A stretch of DNA of 64,000 nt from Thermoproteota archaeon (GCA_021324265.1 JAJPJK010000008.1:33041-97040), one strand, 5' to 3'; shown: positions 3,727 through 14,191, counted from the stretch's first letter. Translations and numbers: made by a program. Notes: generated from the sequence alone by a model not told the origin.

Positions 3727-4851
3727 CTATTGTGGAAGTTCAAGTACTTCTTTGTAAAGCTCAAATATCTGATCAGCAATGATTCTGATATCAAATCTCT
3801 TTACAGTTCTCAACGCATTCACTGAAAGACTCTGATACTCTAAAGGATTAAGCTCAAGCATCTTATTCATTGCTAAGGCTAACTCTTTAACACTGTCCGC
3901 CTTCACTAACATACCGTTCTTCTCATTTACTACACTAGGAATTCCTCCTACCTGAGTGGCAATTACAGGCTTGCCGCAGGCAAAAGCCTCTAAAATCACC
4001 ATTCCAAAAGGCTCAAATCTTGATGGAAGCACAAGAAATCTACAATGTTGGTAATATCTTATCAATTCATATCTTGGAATTCCAACTTTCAGTATCACGT
4101 TATCTCTGAGCTTTAATCTATCAAGCATGTCTTGGATATACTGCCTTGAACCTTCGCCGATTATAACAAGACGTACTTCCTTATGCTTTTTAATGACTTC
4201 AACAAAGGCCTTAAGCAATATATCTATTCCCTTTTGATCAATATCAAATCGACCGACAAAAAGGATATAGTCTATACCCAAATCAGGAGTTTGAATTTTA
4301 AACCTTTCAAGGTTAAGACCAATTGGAATGTACGAGAGATTTTTTCTAGCTATTCCACTGCGAATGAGATAATCTTTTTCGACCTCGCTAATGGCGATGA
4401 TTCTATCTGCATAACGATAAATTTCCCTTGCGATTACATTCATCAATCTTCTTTTAACACTTTTCCTTCCAGGATCAGAATGAGTTTGGATGATATGCCT
4501 TACTCCTTTTAACGCCTTGCAAACAGCACCTATGTAGGTTGTGAAATAACCAAATGAATGTGAATGTATTAAATCTATGTCCTCTCTCCTTAATACTTCA
4601 GAAAGCATATTAAAAGAAAAATATCCTAAGCCTCTAGGAAGTAAGGGCATGCAATTATGTGCGCTAAAGCGCTTAACATATGGGAAATCCTTGATTATAT
4701 TTAAACGTTCTTTTGTTTCAAAATTATAAAAATCAGTTGTAAAAATCTCAACATCTATACTATTCATTTGAACTTGCACAAGATCAAAAACGAAATTTTC
4801 GACACCTCCTATAGAGGGTAAAAACTTTGGTACAAGATGAACAACTTTCAT
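3727..4851 (-). CDS. Glycosyltransferase family 4 (GT-B, retaining)
   Basis: EPFGMVILEAFACGKPVIAT is the GT4/GT1 EX7E motif region. The likely start is MKVVHLVPKF at 4851, an internal Met of the longer ORF, which would make it abut the upstream membrane-protein gene. Confidence 0.85.
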   Translation of the reverse strand: MKVVHLVPKFLPSIGGVENFVFDLVQVQMNSIDVEIFTTDFYNFETKERLNIIKDFPYVKRFSAHNCMPLLPRGLGYFSFNMLSEVLRREDIDLIHSHSFGYFTTYIGAVCKALKGVRHIIQTHSDPGRKSVKRRLMNVIAREIYRYADRIIAISEVEKDYLIRSGIARKNLSYIPIGLNLERFKIQTPDLGIDYILFVGRFDIDQKGIDILLKAFVEVIKKHKEVRLVIIGEGSRQYIQDMLDRLKLRDNVILKVGIPRYELIRYYQHCRFLVLPSRFEPFGMVILEAFACGKPVIATQVGGIPSVVNEKNGMLVKADSVKELALAMNKMLELNPLEYQSLSVNALRTVKRFDIRIIADQIFELYKEVLELPQ

Positions 4852-5951
4852 GATAAGATTCTGAAAACTAAGATGAAAATAGCGATAAGTATCAAAAGAC
4901 CCGACAACAAAGACCAAATAGGAAAAGCGTAATAACTCCCTATAACTCTAAGCAACACCCCAATATTGTAAATGACTAAGGCCTCAAATCTCATTGATTT
5001 AAGTGGATCAGTTTTAGAAAAAAGATTAGACACGAATATTGGAGCGAAAGCGAAAATGGTATTACCTATAAACCCCAAGGAAACACTATGAATGAACATA
5101 TCAATATTTATAATGTTTGAAACGAAGAATAGTAATCCTAAAATAATCCAAATGTAGGACACAATCATTGCGCCTTGATTATAATATACTAATTTTTTTT
5201 CTCTTGGACCAAATTTATGTATAGTAAGTGGCCTTTTACTTTCAAAGATCCTTAACGAAAATGCCATAATTATAAAACTTACAAAAAATGATAGTAGTGA
5301 ATAATACAAATTTAAAAAAAGAGTCAGATGAAGGAAAAGCGAAAGAAGAGACACGATCATGAATAATAGGGAACAGTGTGTTAAAATTCTATAGTTGATT
5401 GTCTGCCTAACAGCAACCATCCTCACTTCTACTGCATAAATTAAAGAACCAATAAAACCCAAGAAGAAAAGGAGTTGACTTTCAAACGTTAATTGCCCAA
5501 TAATAAGCAAAGAAAAAGAAAAAAGGAAAAAGGAAAGGCTAGACAAAATGAAAAAAGGATCTGCTTCAGGAAAATTAGCCTTTATCAAGGAGAATCTGAT
5601 AAAGTAAAATACTAAAAATAAAGAAGAAATTAGTAAAATTAAAGCACTAATTTCTATAAAAAAAGTATTAAAATAACTGATAATAAATAATATAAATGAT
5701 AAATCATATAATATTAGAACTGAAAGAATTACATTTTTCATATATATATTTGAAGACTTGAATTTAGGCAACATATTCAAAGCTATTCCAGACACGAAAT
5801 AAACAAGGGAGTAAATCTGGAAATAAGGATGCCAATATATTAACAAGGAAGGATTTCCAGCTCTAGCAATGTATAAAAGGCCCAAAATGGTTCCTACGAG
5901 GAGTATCGAAAAAGCTTTGTATAAAAATAGACGCTCAAGTGTTGGCTTCAT
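4848..5951 (-). CDS. Polytopic (about 10 TM) membrane protein, possibly a glycan polymerase/flippase-type partner of the adjacent GTs
   Basis: 367 aa, almost entirely hydrophobic helices with no soluble domain, in an operon-like arrangement with GT4. Confidence 0.5.
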   Translation of the reverse strand: MKPTLERLFLYKAFSILLVGTILGLLYIARAGNPSLLIYWHPYFQIYSLVYFVSGIALNMLPKFKSSNIYMKNVILSVLILYDLSFILFIISYFNTFFIEISALILLISSLFLVFYFIRFSLIKANFPEADPFFILSSLSFFLFSFSLLIIGQLTFESQLLFFLGFIGSLIYAVEVRMVAVRQTINYRILTHCSLLFMIVSLLSLFLHLTLFLNLYYSLLSFFVSFIIMAFSLRIFESKRPLTIHKFGPREKKLVYYNQGAMIVSYIWIILGLLFFVSNIINIDMFIHSVSLGFIGNTIFAFAPIFVSNLFSKTDPLKSMRFEALVIYNIGVLLRVIGSYYAFPIWSLLSGLLILIAIFILVFRILS

Positions 5952-10213: not shown

Positions 10214-10365
10214 TCGTTGATTATCCGCAATCTTATTAAGTAAATAAGATTAATAATATACTATATATTTATAACATGTATACTATGCCAAAACAACTAA
10301 AATTATCACTTTCACATTTTCGGTCATCTCTCTTGTATTTATATTACAAAAATCATATTTTCATA

Positions 10366-10596
10366 ATGGGAAGAACTCAGCCTTCATTGACGAATTCGAT
10401 AGATATCGAGCTTAGCAAGCTTAACAAGATAGCAGAAAAACTTAGAGATGAAGAATTGGCTGATATCATCAGAAATTCCAAGTTATATGCGAGAAAGATA
10501 CAGGAAGCTGCGCAAGATGAGCTCATAGATCCCCTCGAGGTGATCATGCTTGCAATCCTCATGTCAAGTAGGCTACGTAATAGACGCGATACCTAG
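10366..10596 (+). CDS. Small charged helical hypothetical protein; its 3' end overlaps the PolB2 start in another frame
   Basis: Taking MGRTQPSL as the likely start of the 106-aa track ORF, the ORF shows coding-like charged/helical composition. It has no recognisable domain. Confidence 0.3.
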   Translation: MGRTQPSLTNSIDIELSKLNKIAEKLRDEELADIIRNSKLYARKIQEAAQDELIDPLEVIMLAILMSSRLRNRRDT

Positions 10597-12268
10597 ATAT
10601 AATAGAATAGAGCTCATACTGAATGGCTTCCGCAGTGTAAGTGTTAGGACTACATACCCAATTTACGTGATCACCGATGACCCATATAAGGTGCTCCAGA
10701 TACCCGATATAGTGAGTTATAAAGAAGAGGAATGGAGGACGCTTGATAATAAACGCGTAAAGCTCTACAGGTTCGAATCCAGATCAATAGAAGCATATTA
10801 TTTCTTGAGGGACAAAATGCAAGTTGTGAACGAGTTCCCTAGCATAATTTCTCAAACACTTTACAGACTAAGGGCGCTACCTATGCATAAAATCAAGGTA
10901 GAGAATGACATGGTAGAGTTGCTCGAAGAAGAGCGTTCGCTTGAATTCCCAGAAATAGATTTCGCAGAAATAGAACTCGAAGACTGGTTCGGCAAATCTC
11001 CAAGAGGAAAAAGATATAATCTATTCATAAACGGAAAGCTCAGGGAGAGCGGCGATATCAGGGATCTATACGTTGAAGCCGACGTAGTGGAGTGCTCTGG
11101 AATAAGCTATGAAAAAGCTAAAGCGGCGGTTAAAATATTGAAGGAAAAGAAGCGCTCGCCTGTAAGCGTTAAGGGCCTTATAGAGTGGAGTAAAACAGCT
11201 AGAGTTCCTTTGAAGGAAATTCGATATGCTACGATAGGTAAGGCATTGACTACCAACGAAGCATGGGTAGCTTTGAAGAAAAAGTATCTAATACCCAAGG
11301 TAAAGCCAAGCGTTGAGCAGAATAAGGATCTGAACGAGTTAATGTTCGCTGATAAAGGGGGAATTATACTTTTTCCAAACGCGGGAATACATGAAAACGT
11401 GTATCAGCTAGATTTCTCTTCAATGTATCCTTCAATTATAGTCAAGTACAACATTTCAGCTGAGACTGTTAATGCATGCGAAGATATAGTCACGCCTTTG
11501 CATAGCATATGTCTAAAAGAGAAAGGTATTGTGCCAGAAGCGCTAGAAGCATTGATAGAGAGGAAGAAGAAATTAAAGGAAATAGATGAAGAACGAGCCG
11601 AAGCCATAAAATGGATCCTCGTTGCCTCATTTGGATATCTAGGATATAGGAACTCGAAATTCGGCAAGATAGAGGCTTATGAGATGGTAACATACTTTGC
11701 AAGGGAAACGATGAGGAAGGCAATGGCCATAGCTAAAGAGAAAGGACTTGAGGTTCTTCATGGAATTGTAGACTCACTTTTTATCAAAGGCGATAAAATA
11801 GATGAATTCATTGAAGACGTAAATAGGGCTACAGGCTTGAACATCAAGATCGAATCAGAATACGAATGGATCGTATTCACATCTACAAGAGAAGGACAAC
11901 CGCATCCACAAAGATACTTCGGAAAGATAAGGGGTAATGGGATGAAGGTCAAAGGCGTGATAAAGGAAAACATGCCGAACCTTGTGAAGGACTTTCTAGA
12001 ACATGTCTTCAAAGAACTAGAACATGCCCATAATGCAAGCGAGGTGAAGGAAATTTTGAACAGCTTAGAGCTTAGCGAATACAAACGCAGAGCATTTTAT
12101 GGCAAACCCATAGATTACGTGATCTGGATAAAAGACAGGCCATATATAAAGAATTCTAAAGGCTTTTACGCAGCCGAACTCGGCTATCGAGACCATGACC
12201 CATACTACTACCTAGCATACCTAGAGCGAACATATGAAGATCTACTTAGATGGATAAATGGAGACTAA
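10550..12268 (+). CDS. polB2: Family B DNA polymerase paralogue PolB2 (Dpo2-like), exonuclease-less with degenerate motifs
   Basis: Motif A is intact: YQLDFSSMYPSII (DxxSLYPS). Motif B is degenerate: KWILVASFGYLGY (N to A). Motif C YGDTDS is replaced by HGIVDS, retaining a single Asp. No Exo I/II/III motifs are present in the roughly 280-aa N-terminal region. Confidence 0.8.
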   Translation: MQSSCQVGYVIDAIPRYNRIELILNGFRSVSVRTTYPIYVITDDPYKVLQIPDIVSYKEEEWRTLDNKRVKLYRFESRSIEAYYFLRDKMQVVNEFPSIISQTLYRLRALPMHKIKVENDMVELLEEERSLEFPEIDFAEIELEDWFGKSPRGKRYNLFINGKLRESGDIRDLYVEADVVECSGISYEKAKAAVKILKEKKRSPVSVKGLIEWSKTARVPLKEIRYATIGKALTTNEAWVALKKKYLIPKVKPSVEQNKDLNELMFADKGGIILFPNAGIHENVYQLDFSSMYPSIIVKYNISAETVNACEDIVTPLHSICLKEKGIVPEALEALIERKKKLKEIDEERAEAIKWILVASFGYLGYRNSKFGKIEAYEMVTYFARETMRKAMAIAKEKGLEVLHGIVDSLFIKGDKIDEFIEDVNRATGLNIKIESEYEWIVFTSTREGQPHPQRYFGKIRGNGMKVKGVIKENMPNLVKDFLEHVFKELEHAHNASEVKEILNSLELSEYKRRAFYGKPIDYVIWIKDRPYIKNSKGFYAAELGYRDHDPYYYLAYLERTYEDLLRWINGD

Positions 12269-12845
12269 AATCTTGATAACGGGTTTCGAGGAGTTAGATA
12301 AATATTTGGCTGAAGATGATATCATCGAATTTTACTCAGAACAAAGCATAGCACTTGACATCATTTATCACAGAGTTCTTGCCTTACTTGCGCCTGTGAA
12401 CTTAATTATAGTAGGAGTTAGAGGTGGCTTCGATCCTTTAATATTCAGAACCTTTTGCAGAATTTTCAACAGGAACAATGTAAATCTTTACATTCAGAGG
12501 GCATTCAAAGCGGAGGATATAGAGCCAACTCTACTAGAATCGAAGAACAGCTTGCCATTGGTCATCTATAACCCCTATGGCTATAGGAGGCTTTACGCAA
12601 GGATAGTAAGCGCGATCAAAAATTCGAGAAGTAAAGTATTGATATTCTCTCCAATTGATAGAAAGAAGAACGGAAGTACATTAGGAGCACATGTGGCGCA
12701 TAGTATAATTGAATTGAAGGAAGCTAAGAACGGAATCAAGGCAAGAATAATTAAGAGCGTAACAACAGGTCCTATAACTTTTGAGTTTACTAAAGGAATG
12801 ATCTATTATAATTTAAGACAAAAATCACTACTGGATTGGATTTGA
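12258..12845 (+). CDS. RecA-superfamily (RadA/RadB/KaiC-like) paralogue with degenerate Walker A and B motifs, predicted ATPase-inactive
   Basis: ILITGFEELDKYL...IIEFYSEQSIALD aligns to the Rad51/RadB core STGSxxLDxLLGGGI..ITEIFGEFGSGKT, but with the P-loop replaced. The Walker B position reads LVIYNP with no Asp. Its start overlaps the PolB2 stop by 11 nt. Confidence 0.45.
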   Translation: METKILITGFEELDKYLAEDDIIEFYSEQSIALDIIYHRVLALLAPVNLIIVGVRGGFDPLIFRTFCRIFNRNNVNLYIQRAFKAEDIEPTLLESKNSLPLVIYNPYGYRRLYARIVSAIKNSRSKVLIFSPIDRKKNGSTLGAHVAHSIIELKEAKNGIKARIIKSVTTGPITFEFTKGMIYYNLRQKSLLDWI

Positions 12846-12919
12846 ATTCGGAATATTCGAGTAACTAAGGCTCAGATCAATTCAAAAACCAAGAAATACT
12901 TAAATTCATATTCTGAAAT

Positions 12920-14191
12920 ATGATATTTATGGATATGATATTCGTCGATAGGAAAAGAGAGCTGGACGTTCTAAAAGATAGATTATCCTCCTCTAATTTT
13001 GAATTAATCATAATCTACGGCAGAAGAAGGATAGGCAAGACATCGCTGATCATGAAGGTTCTCAAAGAATTTGAAAATTCAATTTATTACTTAGCAACAG
13101 AGAAAAATAACCTAGAAAAGTTCAAAGAAATCGCGAGCAAAAAGTATCCAAGTATAAAATATCTAAAGGACGACTGGGAAGCTTTCTTTCATTTCCTGCA
13201 AGATAAAATTATAGTCATAGACGAATTTCCATACCTCATAGTAGAAGATAAAACTGTACTTTCCACTTTTCAAAAAATTGCTGATGAATTGAGAGAAACT
13301 AAGACTAAAATCGTTCTTCTAGGCTCTTCAATATCACTTATGGAAGACGTTCTTTCATACAAAGCCCCGCTATTTGGAAGGAGAACGGCATCGATCAAGG
13401 TTAAGGAGCTGAAGTTCAAGGATCTTCATGAATTCGGTTTCAGCATCGAGGAAGCCATTAAAATCTACGGTTTTGCTGGAGGGGTCCCTTATTATATTAC
13501 AAAAGTAAAACCCCCTTTCATGAGTTGGGTCAATGAGGAATTAAAGAAGACCGATACCTTCCTAAAAGATGAAGTTGATTTTCTCCTAAGGTATGAGTTC
13601 AGCGAGATAGGCACATATAAGGAAATACTTTATGCAATTTCTAAGGGGAAAAATACGTTGGGAGAAATAAAGGACTTCGTTAAAATTAGAGGCGATGTAA
13701 GTTCTTATTTAAAAAAGCTTGAAAGAATTGAATTGATCGAAAGGGAGGCTCCCATCGATAGAAAAAGAGGAATATATGTGATTAAAGATCACTTTGTTAA
13801 CTTCTGGTTCAGATTCATATACCCAAATATTTCATCGATAGAAGAAGGAATTTATGAAATTGAGGAAAAGGAGTATAATGAGTATCTATCCTTTACTTTT
13901 GAAAAGATTGCTAGAGAATATGTTAAAGATAAGTACAAAGTTAAAGTTAAGAGATATTGGAGTAAAGATATTGAGATTGATATATTTTCTGATACTGTAA
14001 TTGGAGAAGTTAAATGGAGTGAGAATGTTAATCCACAAGAAGTGCTAACTACATTAAAAGAGAAAAGTGAAATGATTGGTATTACAAATAGAAAAAATAT
14101 TATTATAGCAAAAAGCTTTAGTAAAGATATCAAAGGTGAAAATTTAGAATTGGTAGACCTAAAAAAATTAGAAGAATGGTATTCTAAATAA
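12920..14191 (+). CDS. Archaeal ATPase family protein (AAA+ Arch_ATPase with DUF234-like C-terminal domain)
   Basis: Walker A YGRRRIGKTS, Walker B VIDEFPY, and a C-terminal wHTH/DUF234-like region typical of the expanded archaeal ATPase family. Confidence 0.75.
   Translation: MIFMDMIFVDRKRELDVLKDRLSSSNFELIIIYGRRRIGKTSLIMKVLKEFENSIYYLATEKNNLEKFKEIASKKYPSIKYLKDDWEAFFHFLQDKIIVIDEFPYLIVEDKTVLSTFQKIADELRETKTKIVLLGSSISLMEDVLSYKAPLFGRRTASIKVKELKFKDLHEFGFSIEEAIKIYGFAGGVPYYITKVKPPFMSWVNEELKKTDTFLKDEVDFLLRYEFSEIGTYKEILYAISKGKNTLGEIKDFVKIRGDVSSYLKKLERIELIEREAPIDRKRGIYVIKDHFVNFWFRFIYPNISSIEEGIYEIEEKEYNEYLSFTFEKIAREYVKDKYKVKVKRYWSKDIEIDIFSDTVIGEVKWSENVNPQEVLTTLKEKSEMIGITNRKNIIIAKSFSKDIKGENLELVDLKKLEEWYSK

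What the first reader, a model, noticed from the sequence alone, without database searches (positions are those of the whole stretch)
10550..12845. Degenerate family-B polymerase (PolB2/Dpo2-like) translationally coupled to a degenerate RecA/RadB-like protein
The 572-aa PolB lacks the exonuclease motifs and has altered motifs B (N to A) and C (YGDTDS to HGIVDS, one Asp left), as described for the 'inactivated' archaeal PolB2 family. Its stop overlaps by 11 nt the start of a 195-aa protein. That protein's N-terminus aligns to the RecA-fold core of Rad51/RadA/RadB (ILITGFEELDKYL...IIEFYSE), but it has lost the P-loop (GxxGxGKT replaced by SEQSIALD) and the Walker B Asp (LVIYNP). Two catalytically crippled members of core DNA-transaction families, expressed as a coupled pair, suggest a structural or scaffolding complex. 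This could be a damage-tolerance or recombination-associated module; Sulfolobales Dpo2 is reported to be damage-inducible. A PolB2 and inactive-recombinase pairing is not something I know to be described.
Basis: partly seen in the sequence, partly recalled or inferred. Interest (0 to 1): 0.7.

Follow-up and report, generated by a model that had tools for sequence, protein, structure and literature searches.

The report
Known PolB2–iRadA–PPB2 damage-tolerance operon
The two overlapping genes are real, but they belong to a three-gene archaeal operon (PPB2, PolB2/Dpo2, inactive RadA) already described in 2014 and modelled as a translesion "mutasome" in 2025, so this is another ordinary copy of a known system.

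Summary
A 572-aa family-B polymerase (10550-12268) overlaps a 195-aa gene (12258-12845) by 11 nt. The polymerase has motif C HGIVDS and no detectable exonuclease motifs.

The 195-aa protein has a RecA/Rad51 core. Its AlphaFold model has pLDDT 88.8, and nearly all of the top 50 Foldseek PDB hits are Rad51/DMC1/RadA. A family profile hits Pyrococcus RadA at E=1.5e-6. The P-loop is lost.

- The pairing is already described, by Makarova et al. 2014 (PMC4104785) and Timinskas et al. 2025 (PMC11791011).
- The polymerase is probably not a dead scaffold. It is 54% identical to S. islandicus Dpo2, an active damage-inducible translesion extender polymerase. The catalytic Asp residues of motifs A and C are invariant in 43 orthologues.

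The three genes are neighbours in 21 of 21 testable genome loci, and in 4 of 4 loci found starting from PolB2. The promoter carries the Orc1-2 damage-response element ANTTTC, which lies at -60 to -40 in 17 of 20 loci (0.57 expected). The inactive RadA ends in a PCNA-binding-like motif, QKSLLDWI.

Verdict: already known, low interest.

The parts
10308..10332 (+). Damage-response promoter element. It has two ANTTTC hexamers (ACTTTC 10308-10313, ATTTTC 10316-21). The second lies within ATTTCGGTCATCTCTC-type context (ATTTTCGGTCATCTCTC, 10316-10332), which fits the S. islandicus consensus AATAGTTTCRGWDTACTCWS.
   Evidence: Sequence. This is the only promoter-context match to ANTTTCN6CTCNC in the 64 kb. 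ANTTTC lies at -60 to -40 of the PPB2 start in 17 of 20 related loci, against 0.57 expected. The motif and its binding by Orc1-2 are described in PMC6061795.
10338..10345 (+). TATA-box-like TTTATATT, 21-28 nt upstream of the PPB2 ATG. This implies a leaderless or nearly leaderless operon mRNA.
   Evidence: Read directly from the sequence. A-T-rich boxes sit at the same distance in the related loci. The transcription start itself is inferred, not shown.
10366..10596 (+). PPB2 (arCOG07300), 76 aa, N-terminus MGRTQPS. The longest ORF starts at 10276, but that start is an over-extension.
   Evidence: The MGRT N-terminus is conserved in 19 of 19 homologous upstream genes and is the 'MGRT' motif of PMC11791011. 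It is 38% identical (E=2e-15) to the 88-aa gene upstream of S. shibatae Dpo2. NCBI annotates the 76-aa form, HLI46967.1.
10537..10543 (+). Shine-Dalgarno-like GAGGTGA, 6 nt upstream of the PolB2 TTG start and inside the end of the PPB2 gene.
   Evidence: Sequence. Its function is inferred from known complementarity to the 3' end of archaeal 16S rRNA.
10550..12268 (+). PolB2 (Dpo2 orthologue), 572 aa, TTG start. It overlaps PPB2 by 47 nt.
   Evidence: Pfam DNA_pol_B. It is 54% identical to S. islandicus Dpo2 and 52% to S. acidocaldarius 'DNA polymerase II'. The AlphaFold model has pLDDT 93.8. The listed Foldseek hits are archaeal family-B polymerases and engineered variants of them, plus E. coli Pol II.
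11297..11356 (+). PolB2 loop, residues 250-269 (KVKPSVEQNKDLNELMFADK), ending in the conserved D(K/R) motif (D268-K269). In the published models this strand-helix loop binds iRadA in the way a RadA polymerisation motif would, and the DK contacts the PPB2 arm.
   Evidence: D268 is invariant in 43 PolB2 sequences. Loop alignment. This region has the lowest confidence inside the monomer model (pLDDT 76-85). The binding role comes from PMC11791011 and was not tested here.
11411..11434 (+). Polymerase motif A, DFSSMYPS (288-295), with the catalytic Asp retained.
   Evidence: D288 is invariant.
11609..11635 (+). Polymerase motif B, KWILVASFG (354-362). Lys is kept, Asn is replaced by Val and Ser by Ala.
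   Evidence: Alignment to 5mdn. K354 is invariant.
11759..11776 (+). Polymerase motif C, HGIVDS (404-409). This is the HxxxD form typical of PolB2, with the second Asp retained.
   Evidence: D408 is invariant. HxxxD is described in PMC8764526.
12233..12256 (+). PolB2 C-terminal YEDLLRWI. It resembles a PCNA-binding motif but lacks the leading Gln.
   Evidence: Binding was not tested.
12258..12845 (+). iRadA, 195 aa: a RadA/Rad51 ATPase-core fold without the N-terminal domain and without a P-loop. Its start overlaps the end of PolB2 by 11 nt.
   Evidence: AlphaFold pLDDT 88.8, pTM 0.86. Foldseek PDB hits are almost all Rad51/DMC1/RadA, probability 1.0, E about 1e-7. The family profile hits Pyrococcus RadA at E=1.5e-6. 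A distant relative passes Pfam Rad51 at 3e-11.
12336..12359 (+). Degenerate Walker A position, SEQSIALD (residues 27-34), in place of RadA's GEFGSGKT.
   Evidence: Profile alignment to RadA chains 4a6p and 1pzn. Family alignment.
12558..12575 (+). Strand equivalent to Walker B, LVIYNP (101-106). Asn replaces the Asp that most orthologues keep.
   Evidence: Strand E101-104 in the model. Family consensus vIDPY. The equivalence to Walker B is inferred from topology.
12819..12842 (+). iRadA C-terminal QKSLLDWI (188-195). It fits the PCNA-interacting pattern QxxLxxW[ILF].
   Evidence: PCNA-binding motifs at iRadA C-termini are described in PMC11791011. Binding was not tested here.

Best explanation
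Window 10308-12845 is a chromosomal copy of the archaeal 'PolB2 mutasome' operon, with gene order PPB2 - PolB2 (Dpo2) - iRadA.

Regulation (inferred). One promoter, made of an ANTTTC damage-response element and a TATA box, drives a nearly leaderless mRNA. After DNA damage an Orc1-2-type regulator would activate it.

Translation (inferred). The three reading frames overlap by 47 nt and 11 nt and are translated together.

Assembly (inferred from published models). PolB2 would bind one iRadA through a loop that mimics the RadA polymerisation motif. A PPB2 trimer would insert one N-terminal MGRT arm between PolB2 and iRadA, near the DNA. iRadA cannot bind ATP and would act as a structural subunit and PCNA tether through its C-terminal QKSLLDWI.

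Function (by homology). PolB2 is an exonuclease-free but catalytically active polymerase. It would extend mismatched or lesion-paired primer ends during translesion synthesis, giving damage tolerance at the cost of mutations.

Shown here: gene structure, folds, loss of the ATP-binding loop, conservation of the polymerase catalytic residues, conserved gene neighbourhood, and the conserved promoter motif.

Taken from the literature on orthologues: polymerase activity, damage induction, and complex architecture. The complex exists only as AlphaFold models.
For: Gene layout and overlaps.

PolB2 identity:
- Pfam and NCBIfam matches.
- 54% identity to S. islandicus Dpo2 and 56% to the S. shibatae enzyme over the full length.
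- The model and its PDB matches.
- D268, D288, K354 and D408 are invariant over 43 orthologues that go down to 31% identity.

iRadA identity.

PPB2 identity.

Neighbourhood:
- Of 22 genome loci holding an iRadA homologue, 21 have PolB2 next to it. The other is cut by a contig end.
- 18 of the 22 have a detectable PPB2.
- Four further loci found from the PolB2 side all carry iRadA (hmmsearch 5e-56 to 2e-78) and an MGRT protein.
- S. shibatae has the same layout, with 46-nt and 7-nt overlaps.

Promoter element.

Literature:
- Operon (PMC4104785).
- Heteropentamer model, MGRT arm, RadA-like binding motif and PCNA motifs (PMC11791011).
- Active extender polymerase lacking exonuclease (PMC8764526).
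- Orc1-2-dependent induction of the Dpo2 genes (PMC6061795).
Against: - Nothing was measured for this organism, which is an uncultured archaeon. Activity, induction and complex formation are all transferred from Sulfolobales orthologues at 38-56% identity.
- The complex itself is still only an AlphaFold prediction, even in S. islandicus. A 2026 review still calls for experimental verification.
- I could not run a multimer prediction for the window's proteins.
- No Orc1-2 gene was sought in the window.
- The related loci share ancestry, so the promoter-motif count partly reflects relatedness. Against that, the flanking bases are diverged.
- The window's iRadA has Asn where most orthologues keep Asp. 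The significance of this is unknown.
Confidence: 0.88

Rival explanations
1. Both proteins are catalytically dead, and the pair is a purely structural or scaffolding complex acting in recombination or damage signalling, with no DNA synthesis.
For: The first Asp of motif C, the Asn of motif B and the exonuclease motifs are absent. iRadA has no P-loop. This was also the literature's view up to 2014 (PMC4104785).
Against: The S. islandicus orthologue (54% identical, same HxIxD motif C) is a robust polymerase in vitro. It is reported to be required for targeted mutagenesis. The metal-binding Asp of motif A, the second Asp of motif C and the Lys of motif B are invariant across 43 orthologues. A dead scaffold would not be expected to conserve them.
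Confidence: 0.06
2. The complex acts in replication initiation or its regulation rather than in translesion synthesis. Examples are origin-independent, recombination-like initiation or control of origin recognition, as Makarova et al. 2014 offered as an alternative.
For: In many Euryarchaeota the operon sits next to an Orc1/Cdc6-family gene. iRadA derives from a recombinase.
Against: In Sulfolobales the Orc1 paralogue linked to these genes (Orc1-2) is a damage-response regulator, not an initiator. The window's promoter carries its binding motif. The genetics and biochemistry of Dpo2 point to lesion and mismatch extension. No orc1/cdc6 gene is adjacent in the window. The downstream AAA gene is of the ATPase_2/DUF234 type.
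Confidence: 0.04
3. The 195-aa gene is an unrelated neighbour whose overlap with the polymerase gene is incidental. In that case there is no functional pair.
For: No Pfam or NCBIfam family matches it directly. Short overlaps are common in compact archaeal genomes.
Against: Adjacency holds in 21 of 21 testable loci found from the iRadA side and in 4 of 4 found from the PolB2 side. These span Sulfolobales, Acidilobus, Caldisphaera, Thermosphaera, Tardisphaera and Marsarchaeota, and the gene order varies.
Confidence: 0.01

Closest known systems
Sulfolobales Dpo2 operon (S. islandicus SiRe_0614-0616; PolB2 + PPB2/arCOG07300 + iRadA), the 'PolB2 mutasome' of Timinskas, Timinskas and Venclovas 2025
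   Same: - Same three genes in the same order, with the same style of overlaps. S. shibatae has 88, 552 and 191 aa with 46-nt and 7-nt overlaps.
- PolB2 is 54-56% identical, iRadA 41% and PPB2 38%.
- Same HxIxD motif C, DK loop motif, MGRT arm and missing P-loop.
- Same ANTTTC element at about -50.
   Different: - The host is a separate, uncultured lineage. Its best genome matches are only about 54% identical for PolB2.
- PolB2 has two small insertions in the N-terminal domain.
- iRadA ends in a full QxxLxxWI motif, where Saccharolobus has GGLLKYMV.
- iRadA has Asn instead of Asp at the Walker-B-equivalent position.
- PolB2 also ends in a PIP-like LLRWI.
E. coli Pol V mutasome (UmuC-UmuD'2-RecA)
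   Same: A damage-induced translesion polymerase that works with a RecA-family subunit and a small oligomeric accessory protein. PMC11791011 draws this architectural analogy.
   Different: - Pol V is a Y-family polymerase, not B-family.
- Its RecA is the active cellular recombinase borrowed from a filament, not a dedicated ATP-blind paralogue.
- UmuD' and PPB2 are not homologous.
- Regulation is by LexA rather than Orc1-2.
RadB and other archaeal RadA paralogues (aRadC / KaiC-like)
   Same: A RecA/Rad51 core without the N-terminal helix-hairpin-helix domain, about 200 aa.
   Different: From general knowledge, RadB and aRadC keep Walker A and B and bind ATP. The window protein has SEQSIALD in place of the P-loop. 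It is tied to PolB2 rather than to recombination genes.
Eukaryotic Pol zeta (Rev3-Rev7 plus accessory subunits)
   Same: A B-family polymerase without proofreading, specialised as an extender after lesion insertion and working as a multi-subunit complex. This is a functional analogy.
   Different: The accessory subunits are unrelated: HORMA and Pol31/Pol32 rather than iRadA and PPB2. There is no RecA-fold partner.

Membership tests
PolB2 (Dpo2) group of family-B DNA polymerases | Family-B polymerase fold (palm, fingers, thumb) | tested here: met
   Pfam DNA_pol_B E=2e-12. phmmer to 5mdn E=7e-28. Model pLDDT 93.8, with Foldseek hits to archaeal PolB and E. coli Pol II at E about 1e-23 to 1e-27.
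PolB2 (Dpo2) group of family-B DNA polymerases | Motif C changed from YxDTD to HxxxD, with the first Asp lost and the second kept | tested here: met
   HGIVDS at 404-409 aligns to YGDTDS. All but two of 43 orthologues have the His, and D408 is invariant. The feature is defined in PMC8764526.
PolB2 (Dpo2) group of family-B DNA polymerases | Conserved D(K/R) motif in a loop before motif A | tested here: met
   D268-K269. D268 is invariant. The feature comes from PMC11791011.
PolB2 (Dpo2) group of family-B DNA polymerases | Exonuclease domain decayed, with no exonuclease active-site motifs | tested here: inconclusive
   There is no PF03104 match in this protein or its close homologues, while longer distant relatives have one. 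Sequence alignments to solved enzymes start at residue ~201. The N-terminal 200 residues are about 150 shorter than in canonical enzymes. I did not make a residue-level structural superposition of the Exo I-III positions.
PolB2 (Dpo2) group of family-B DNA polymerases | Close relationship to the experimentally studied S. islandicus Dpo2 | tested here: met
   54% identity over 97% of the length to P0100. 56% identity to the S. shibatae enzyme. No phylogenetic tree was built.
PolB2 (Dpo2) group of family-B DNA polymerases | DNA polymerase activity with mismatch or lesion extension and no 3'-5' exonuclease | not testable with these tools
   Biochemistry exists only for the S. islandicus enzyme.
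iRadA (inactivated RadA of PolB2 operons; arCOG07763/04294/08101) | RecA/Rad51-type ATPase-core fold | tested here: met
   Foldseek PDB: nearly all listed hits are Rad51/DMC1/RadA, probability 1.0, query-normalised TM 0.57-0.71. The profile hits RadA chain 4a6p at E=1.5e-6.
iRadA (inactivated RadA of PolB2 operons; arCOG07763/04294/08101) | No N-terminal helical (oligomerisation / DNA-binding) domain | tested here: met
   Residue 2-3 of the family profile aligns to residue 114 of full-length Pyrococcus RadA (1pzn). The protein is only 195 aa.
iRadA (inactivated RadA of PolB2 operons; arCOG07763/04294/08101) | ATP-binding residues (Walker A) replaced | tested here: met
   GEFGSGKT in RadA aligns to SEQSIALD in the window. 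No Gly-Lys-Thr/Ser occurs anywhere in the family at that position.
iRadA (inactivated RadA of PolB2 operons; arCOG07763/04294/08101) | Encoded next to PolB2 and PPB2 | tested here: met
   21 of 21 testable loci, plus 4 of 4 found from the PolB2 side.
iRadA (inactivated RadA of PolB2 operons; arCOG07763/04294/08101) | Physical binding to the PolB2 loop through the RadA-polymerisation-like interface | not testable with these tools
   No multimer prediction was available here. Published AlphaFold-Multimer and AlphaFold3 models exist only for other species.
PPB2 (arCOG07300) | Small protein (about 75-90 aa) with the conserved N-terminal MGRT arm | tested here: met
   76 aa starting MGRTQPS. The same start occurs in all 19 homologous genes examined.
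PPB2 (arCOG07300) | Three-helix fold that forms a trimer | not tested
Sequence homology to the S. shibatae protein is E=2e-15.
RadB (euryarchaeal short RadA paralogue) | Intact Walker A and B motifs with ATP binding (general knowledge) | tested here: not met
   Walker A is absent. The protein resembles RadB only in lacking the N-terminal domain.
Orc1-2 DNA-damage regulon (Sulfolobales) | ANTTTC element about 23-55 nt upstream of the start codon, upstream of the TATA box | tested here: met
   ATTTTC at -50 and ACTTTC at -58. The extended match ATTTTCGGTCATCTCTC is the only promoter-context one in the window. The motif is conserved in 17 of 20 loci against 0.57 expected. The motif definition is in PMC6061795.
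Orc1-2 DNA-damage regulon (Sulfolobales) | Induction after DNA damage that depends on an Orc1-2 protein | not testable with these tools
   This needs transcript measurements. I did not look for an Orc1-2 gene in this genome.

The most novel reading that the evidence does not exclude
Two modest points are not excluded by the evidence.

(1) In this lineage both PolB2 (YEDLLRWI) and iRadA (QKSLLDWI) end in PCNA-binding-like motifs. The published survey says this is rare. The complex might therefore grip two different subunits of the heterotrimeric crenarchaeal PCNA at once.

(2) The ANTTTC damage element sits at the same distance upstream of the operon in Sulfolobales and also in Acidilobus-, Tardisphaera- and Marsarchaeota-like genomes. 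The Orc1-2 damage regulon may therefore be much older and wider than the Sulfolobales, where it was defined.
Probability: 0.3. Interest if true: 0.3.

Novelty: already known. Interest (0 to 1): 0.15.

Why it matters
As a discovery it matters little. The PolB2 / inactive RadA / small helical protein operon was reported in 2013-2014. Its polymerase was shown to be an active translesion extender in 2020-2022. The three-protein complex was modelled in 2025.

The copy in this window adds one more diverged sequence set from an uncultured thermoacidophile-like archaeon, with every family hallmark intact. The sequences could serve groups trying to solve the complex experimentally, which had still not been done by early 2026. 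The conserved promoter element gives a small extra argument that damage-inducible control of this operon extends beyond the Sulfolobales.

Tried and rejected
- Pfam and NCBIfam scans of the 195-aa protein gave nothing usable. A profile of close homologues only (A2) found no PDB sequence at E<=10. The RadA link appeared only after distant relatives were added (A3) and by structure comparison.
- The first word-indexed protein search found only 3 relatives. A profile search was needed to reach the Sulfolobales orthologues.
- The full-library representative search returned only 33 hits at E<=0.001. The family is thin and fast-evolving at the sequence level.
- I considered the 106-aa ORF from ATG 10276 as the upstream gene. 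I rejected it in favour of ATG 10366, because of the conserved MGRT start, the TATA box at -21 to -28 and NCBI's own 76-aa call.
- I considered whether the downstream ATPase_2/DUF234 gene (12920-14191) belongs to the operon. It follows iRadA in only one other locus (L006) and is separated by a 74-nt gap, so I left it out.
- I considered a mobile-element origin for the polymerase. The neighbours are ordinary metabolic genes, so I rejected it.
- tRNA and Rfam scans of the whole window found nothing.
- No multimer prediction was possible with the tools, so the PolB2-iRadA interface was not tested for this sequence.
Full report
**1. What is in the sequence**

The region holds three same-strand, overlapping reading frames, not two.

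- ORF listing gives 10550-12268 (TTG start, 572 aa) and 12258-12845 (ATG, 195 aa). The second start lies 11 nt before the first stop.
- Upstream, the longest ORF runs 10276-10596. It contains an internal ATG at 10366 followed by MGRTQPS. I take 10366-10596 (76 aa) as the real gene, for the reasons given in section 4.
- The TTG at 10550 is the first start codon after an in-frame TGA. It lies 6 nt after GAGGTGA, a Shine-Dalgarno-like sequence.
- Close relatives begin with the same residues, and the Saccharolobus enzyme begins 5 residues later in the alignment.
- The first and second genes therefore overlap by 47 nt.

The flanking genes are ordinary chromosomal ones: pyruvate kinase, rhodanese, a methionine-synthase-like gene, OsmC, a family III CoA-transferase, glycosyltransferases and others. 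I found no sign of a mobile element.

**2. The polymerase**

Sequence matches:

- The 572-aa protein matches Pfam DNA_pol_B (E=2e-12) and has no exonuclease-domain match.
- NCBIfam places it nearest a 'type B DNA polymerase' model, below that model's cut-off.

Alignment against solved structures begins at residue ~201-210 and shows:

| Motif | Window sequence | Comment |
|---|---|---|
| A | DFSSMYPS | intact |
| C | HGIVDS | against YGDTDS |

The protein is 54% identical to the S. islandicus protein, 52% to S. acidocaldarius 'DNA polymerase II', and 56% to the S. shibatae orthologue across the whole length.

In an alignment of 43 orthologues down to 31% identity, D268 (the DK loop motif), D288 (motif A), K354 (motif B) and D408 (motif C) are invariant. 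Motif C reads H-x-[IVLM]-[IV]-D in all but two sequences.

The AlphaFold model is confident (pLDDT 93.8). It matches archaeal family-B polymerases and E. coli Pol II. The only internal dip in confidence is at residues ~250-280, the loop before DK.

**3. The 195-aa protein**

- It has no direct Pfam or NCBIfam match.
- A profile built from three close relatives reached 50 proteins. These include unnamed proteins of Saccharolobus, Sulfurisphaera, Acidianus, Metallosphaera, Stygiolobus and Tardisphaera.
- The AlphaFold model (pLDDT 88.8, pTM 0.86) matches solved structures that are almost all Rad51, DMC1 or RadA (probability 1.0, E about 1e-7).
- A profile that includes distant relatives hits Pyrococcus RadA at E=1.5e-6. 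That alignment places RadA's GEFGSGKT opposite the family's 'Ge.edlvs', which is SEQSIALD in the window.
- One distant relative passes Pfam Rad51 at 3e-11.
- The alignment starts at the ATPase core of RadA, so the N-terminal domain is absent.
- The strand LVIYNP (101-106) corresponds by topology to Walker B. It carries Asn, whereas most orthologues keep Asp.
- The C-terminus QKSLLDWI fits the PCNA-interaction pattern. Related C-termini (GLxxW[LIV], or QxxLxEW[LF] in distant members) recur through the family.

**4. The third gene and the promoter**

- The 76-aa product is 38% identical (E=2e-15) to the 88-aa gene upstream of S. shibatae Dpo2.
- In 19 of 19 related loci the homologous gene starts (M/V/L)GRT.
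- NCBI annotates the same 76-aa form.

Upstream lie ACTTTC (-58), ATTTTC (-50) and TTTATATT (-28 to -21). The stretch ATTTTCGGTCATCTCTC fits the 20-bp S. islandicus damage-response consensus AATAGTTTCRGWDTACTCWS, whose ANTTTC core is bound by Orc1-2 (PMC6061795).

The extended pattern occurs three times in the window. The other two matches are inside the polymerase gene on the opposite strand.

Across 20 loci, ANTTTC lies between -60 and -40 of the PPB2 start in 17, against 0.57 expected from each locus's own motif frequency. The flanking bases are diverged.

**5. Is the neighbourhood conserved?**

Survey starting from iRadA:

- 22 genome loci encode a relative.
- 21 have the polymerase adjacent; the other is cut at a contig end.
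- 18 also have a detectable PPB2.
- The order is usually PPB2-PolB2-iRadA. In three loci iRadA is on the opposite strand.

Survey starting from the polymerase: S. acidocaldarius, Caldisphaera, Thermosphaera and a Thermoprotei metagenome bin were examined. All four have an iRadA (hmmsearch 5e-56 to 2e-78) and an MGRT protein beside the polymerase, in varied orders. In one locus DUF72 genes flank the operon.

**6. What is already known**

- Makarova et al. 2014 described the predicted operon PolB2 / arCOG07300 / inactivated RadA in archaea and some bacteria. They proposed that the products form a complex acting in damage response or replication control (PMC4104785).
- Sun et al. 2018 showed that the Dpo2 genes are the only polymerase genes induced by NQO, and that the induction depends on Orc1-2.
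- Feng et al. 2022 purified S. islandicus Dpo2. They found robust polymerase activity, no exonuclease activity, and efficient extension of mismatched and lesion-paired ends (PMC8764526).
- Timinskas et al. 2025 renamed the partners PPB2 and iRadA and modelled a PolB2:iRadA:PPB2(3) heteropentamer in 40 species. They identified the MGRT arm, the DK motif, a PolB2 loop that binds iRadA like a RadA polymerisation motif, and PCNA-binding motifs found mostly in iRadA (PMC11791011).
- A 2026 review notes that the complex still awaits experimental proof.

**7. Most likely mechanism**

- DNA damage activates an Orc1-2-type regulator, which binds the ANTTTC element and switches on a nearly leaderless tricistronic mRNA. 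This step is inferred.
- The overlapping frames favour coupled translation. This step is also inferred.
- PolB2, iRadA and a PPB2 trimer assemble, going by published models of orthologues.
- iRadA cannot bind ATP, which is shown here. It would serve as a structural subunit and PCNA tether, which is inferred from its C-terminal motif.
- PolB2 extends primer ends opposite lesions or mismatches, by homology to the S. islandicus enzyme. The invariance of the catalytic residues supports this.

I give this explanation about 0.88. The 'dead scaffold' reading gets about 0.06, a replication-initiation role about 0.04, and incidental adjacency about 0.01.

**8. Verdict**

The claim of an undescribed pairing is wrong, and the inference of catalytic death is outdated. 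The window holds a typical, complete member of a known operon, so novelty is 'already known' and interest is low (0.15).

Two residual points may be worth a look. First, both PolB2 and iRadA have PCNA-binding-like C-termini here. Second, the damage-response element is conserved upstream of this operon well outside the Sulfolobales.

Noticed in passing
window 10276-14191; locus L001 (7,153-bp contig k141_561894): NCBI labels the identical proteins (HLI46967.1, HLI46969.1, HLI46970.1) as 'MAG TPA: Geobacterales bacterium', which is a bacterial order. The genes, the promoter style and the closest relatives are all archaeal (Sulfolobales-like Thermoproteota). The short contig was probably mis-binned into a bacterial genome bin.
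   Followed up: partly
upstream of PPB2 in loci L004-L026 (e.g. L011 about 2864, L019 about 57, L016 about 3041): The ANTTTC damage-response element sits about 43-58 nt upstream of the operon in Sulfolobales. It sits at the same distance in Acidilobus-, Tardisphaera-, 'Thermoproteati'- and Marsarchaeota-labelled genomes. This suggests that the Orc1-2-type regulon reaches beyond the order where it was defined.
   Followed up: partly
window 12233-12256 and 12819-12842: PolB2 (YEDLLRWI) and iRadA (QKSLLDWI) both end in PCNA-binding-like motifs that share the core LLxWI. The published survey says such motifs rarely occur in both subunits of one species.
   Followed up: partly
window 12570-12572 (iRadA residue N105): The Walker-B-equivalent Asp, kept in most iRadA orthologues (consensus vIDPY), is Asn in the window and in a few other family members, P0002, P0035 and P0058. 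Its significance is unknown.
   Followed up: no
window 12920-14191 (+): The downstream gene encodes an archaeal ATPase_2 + DUF234 protein (423 aa), 74 nt after iRadA. A 61%-identical homologue lies about 680 nt downstream of iRadA in one Sulfolobaceae genome bin (L006) and in no other locus. It is probably a separate transcription unit.
   Followed up: partly
window 10276-10365: Gene callers disagree on the PPB2 start. Metagenome pipelines-106 aa from upstream ATGs, which would place the promoter elements inside the gene. NCBI aa. The conserved MGRT start favours 76 aa.
   Followed up: yes
locus L029 3153-3764 and 6046-6870: In a distant PolB2 locus the operon is flanked on both sides by DUF72 genes. 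This family is noted in PMC11791011 as enriched near polB2 and is related to UV-damage endonuclease.
   Followed up: no
window 1-64000: ARAGORN found no tRNA gene and no Rfam family reached its gathering score anywhere in the 64 kb.
   Followed up: no
window 4848-5951 (-): A 367-aa ORF among the glycosyltransferase genes has no Pfam match at E<=1e-5.
   Followed up: no
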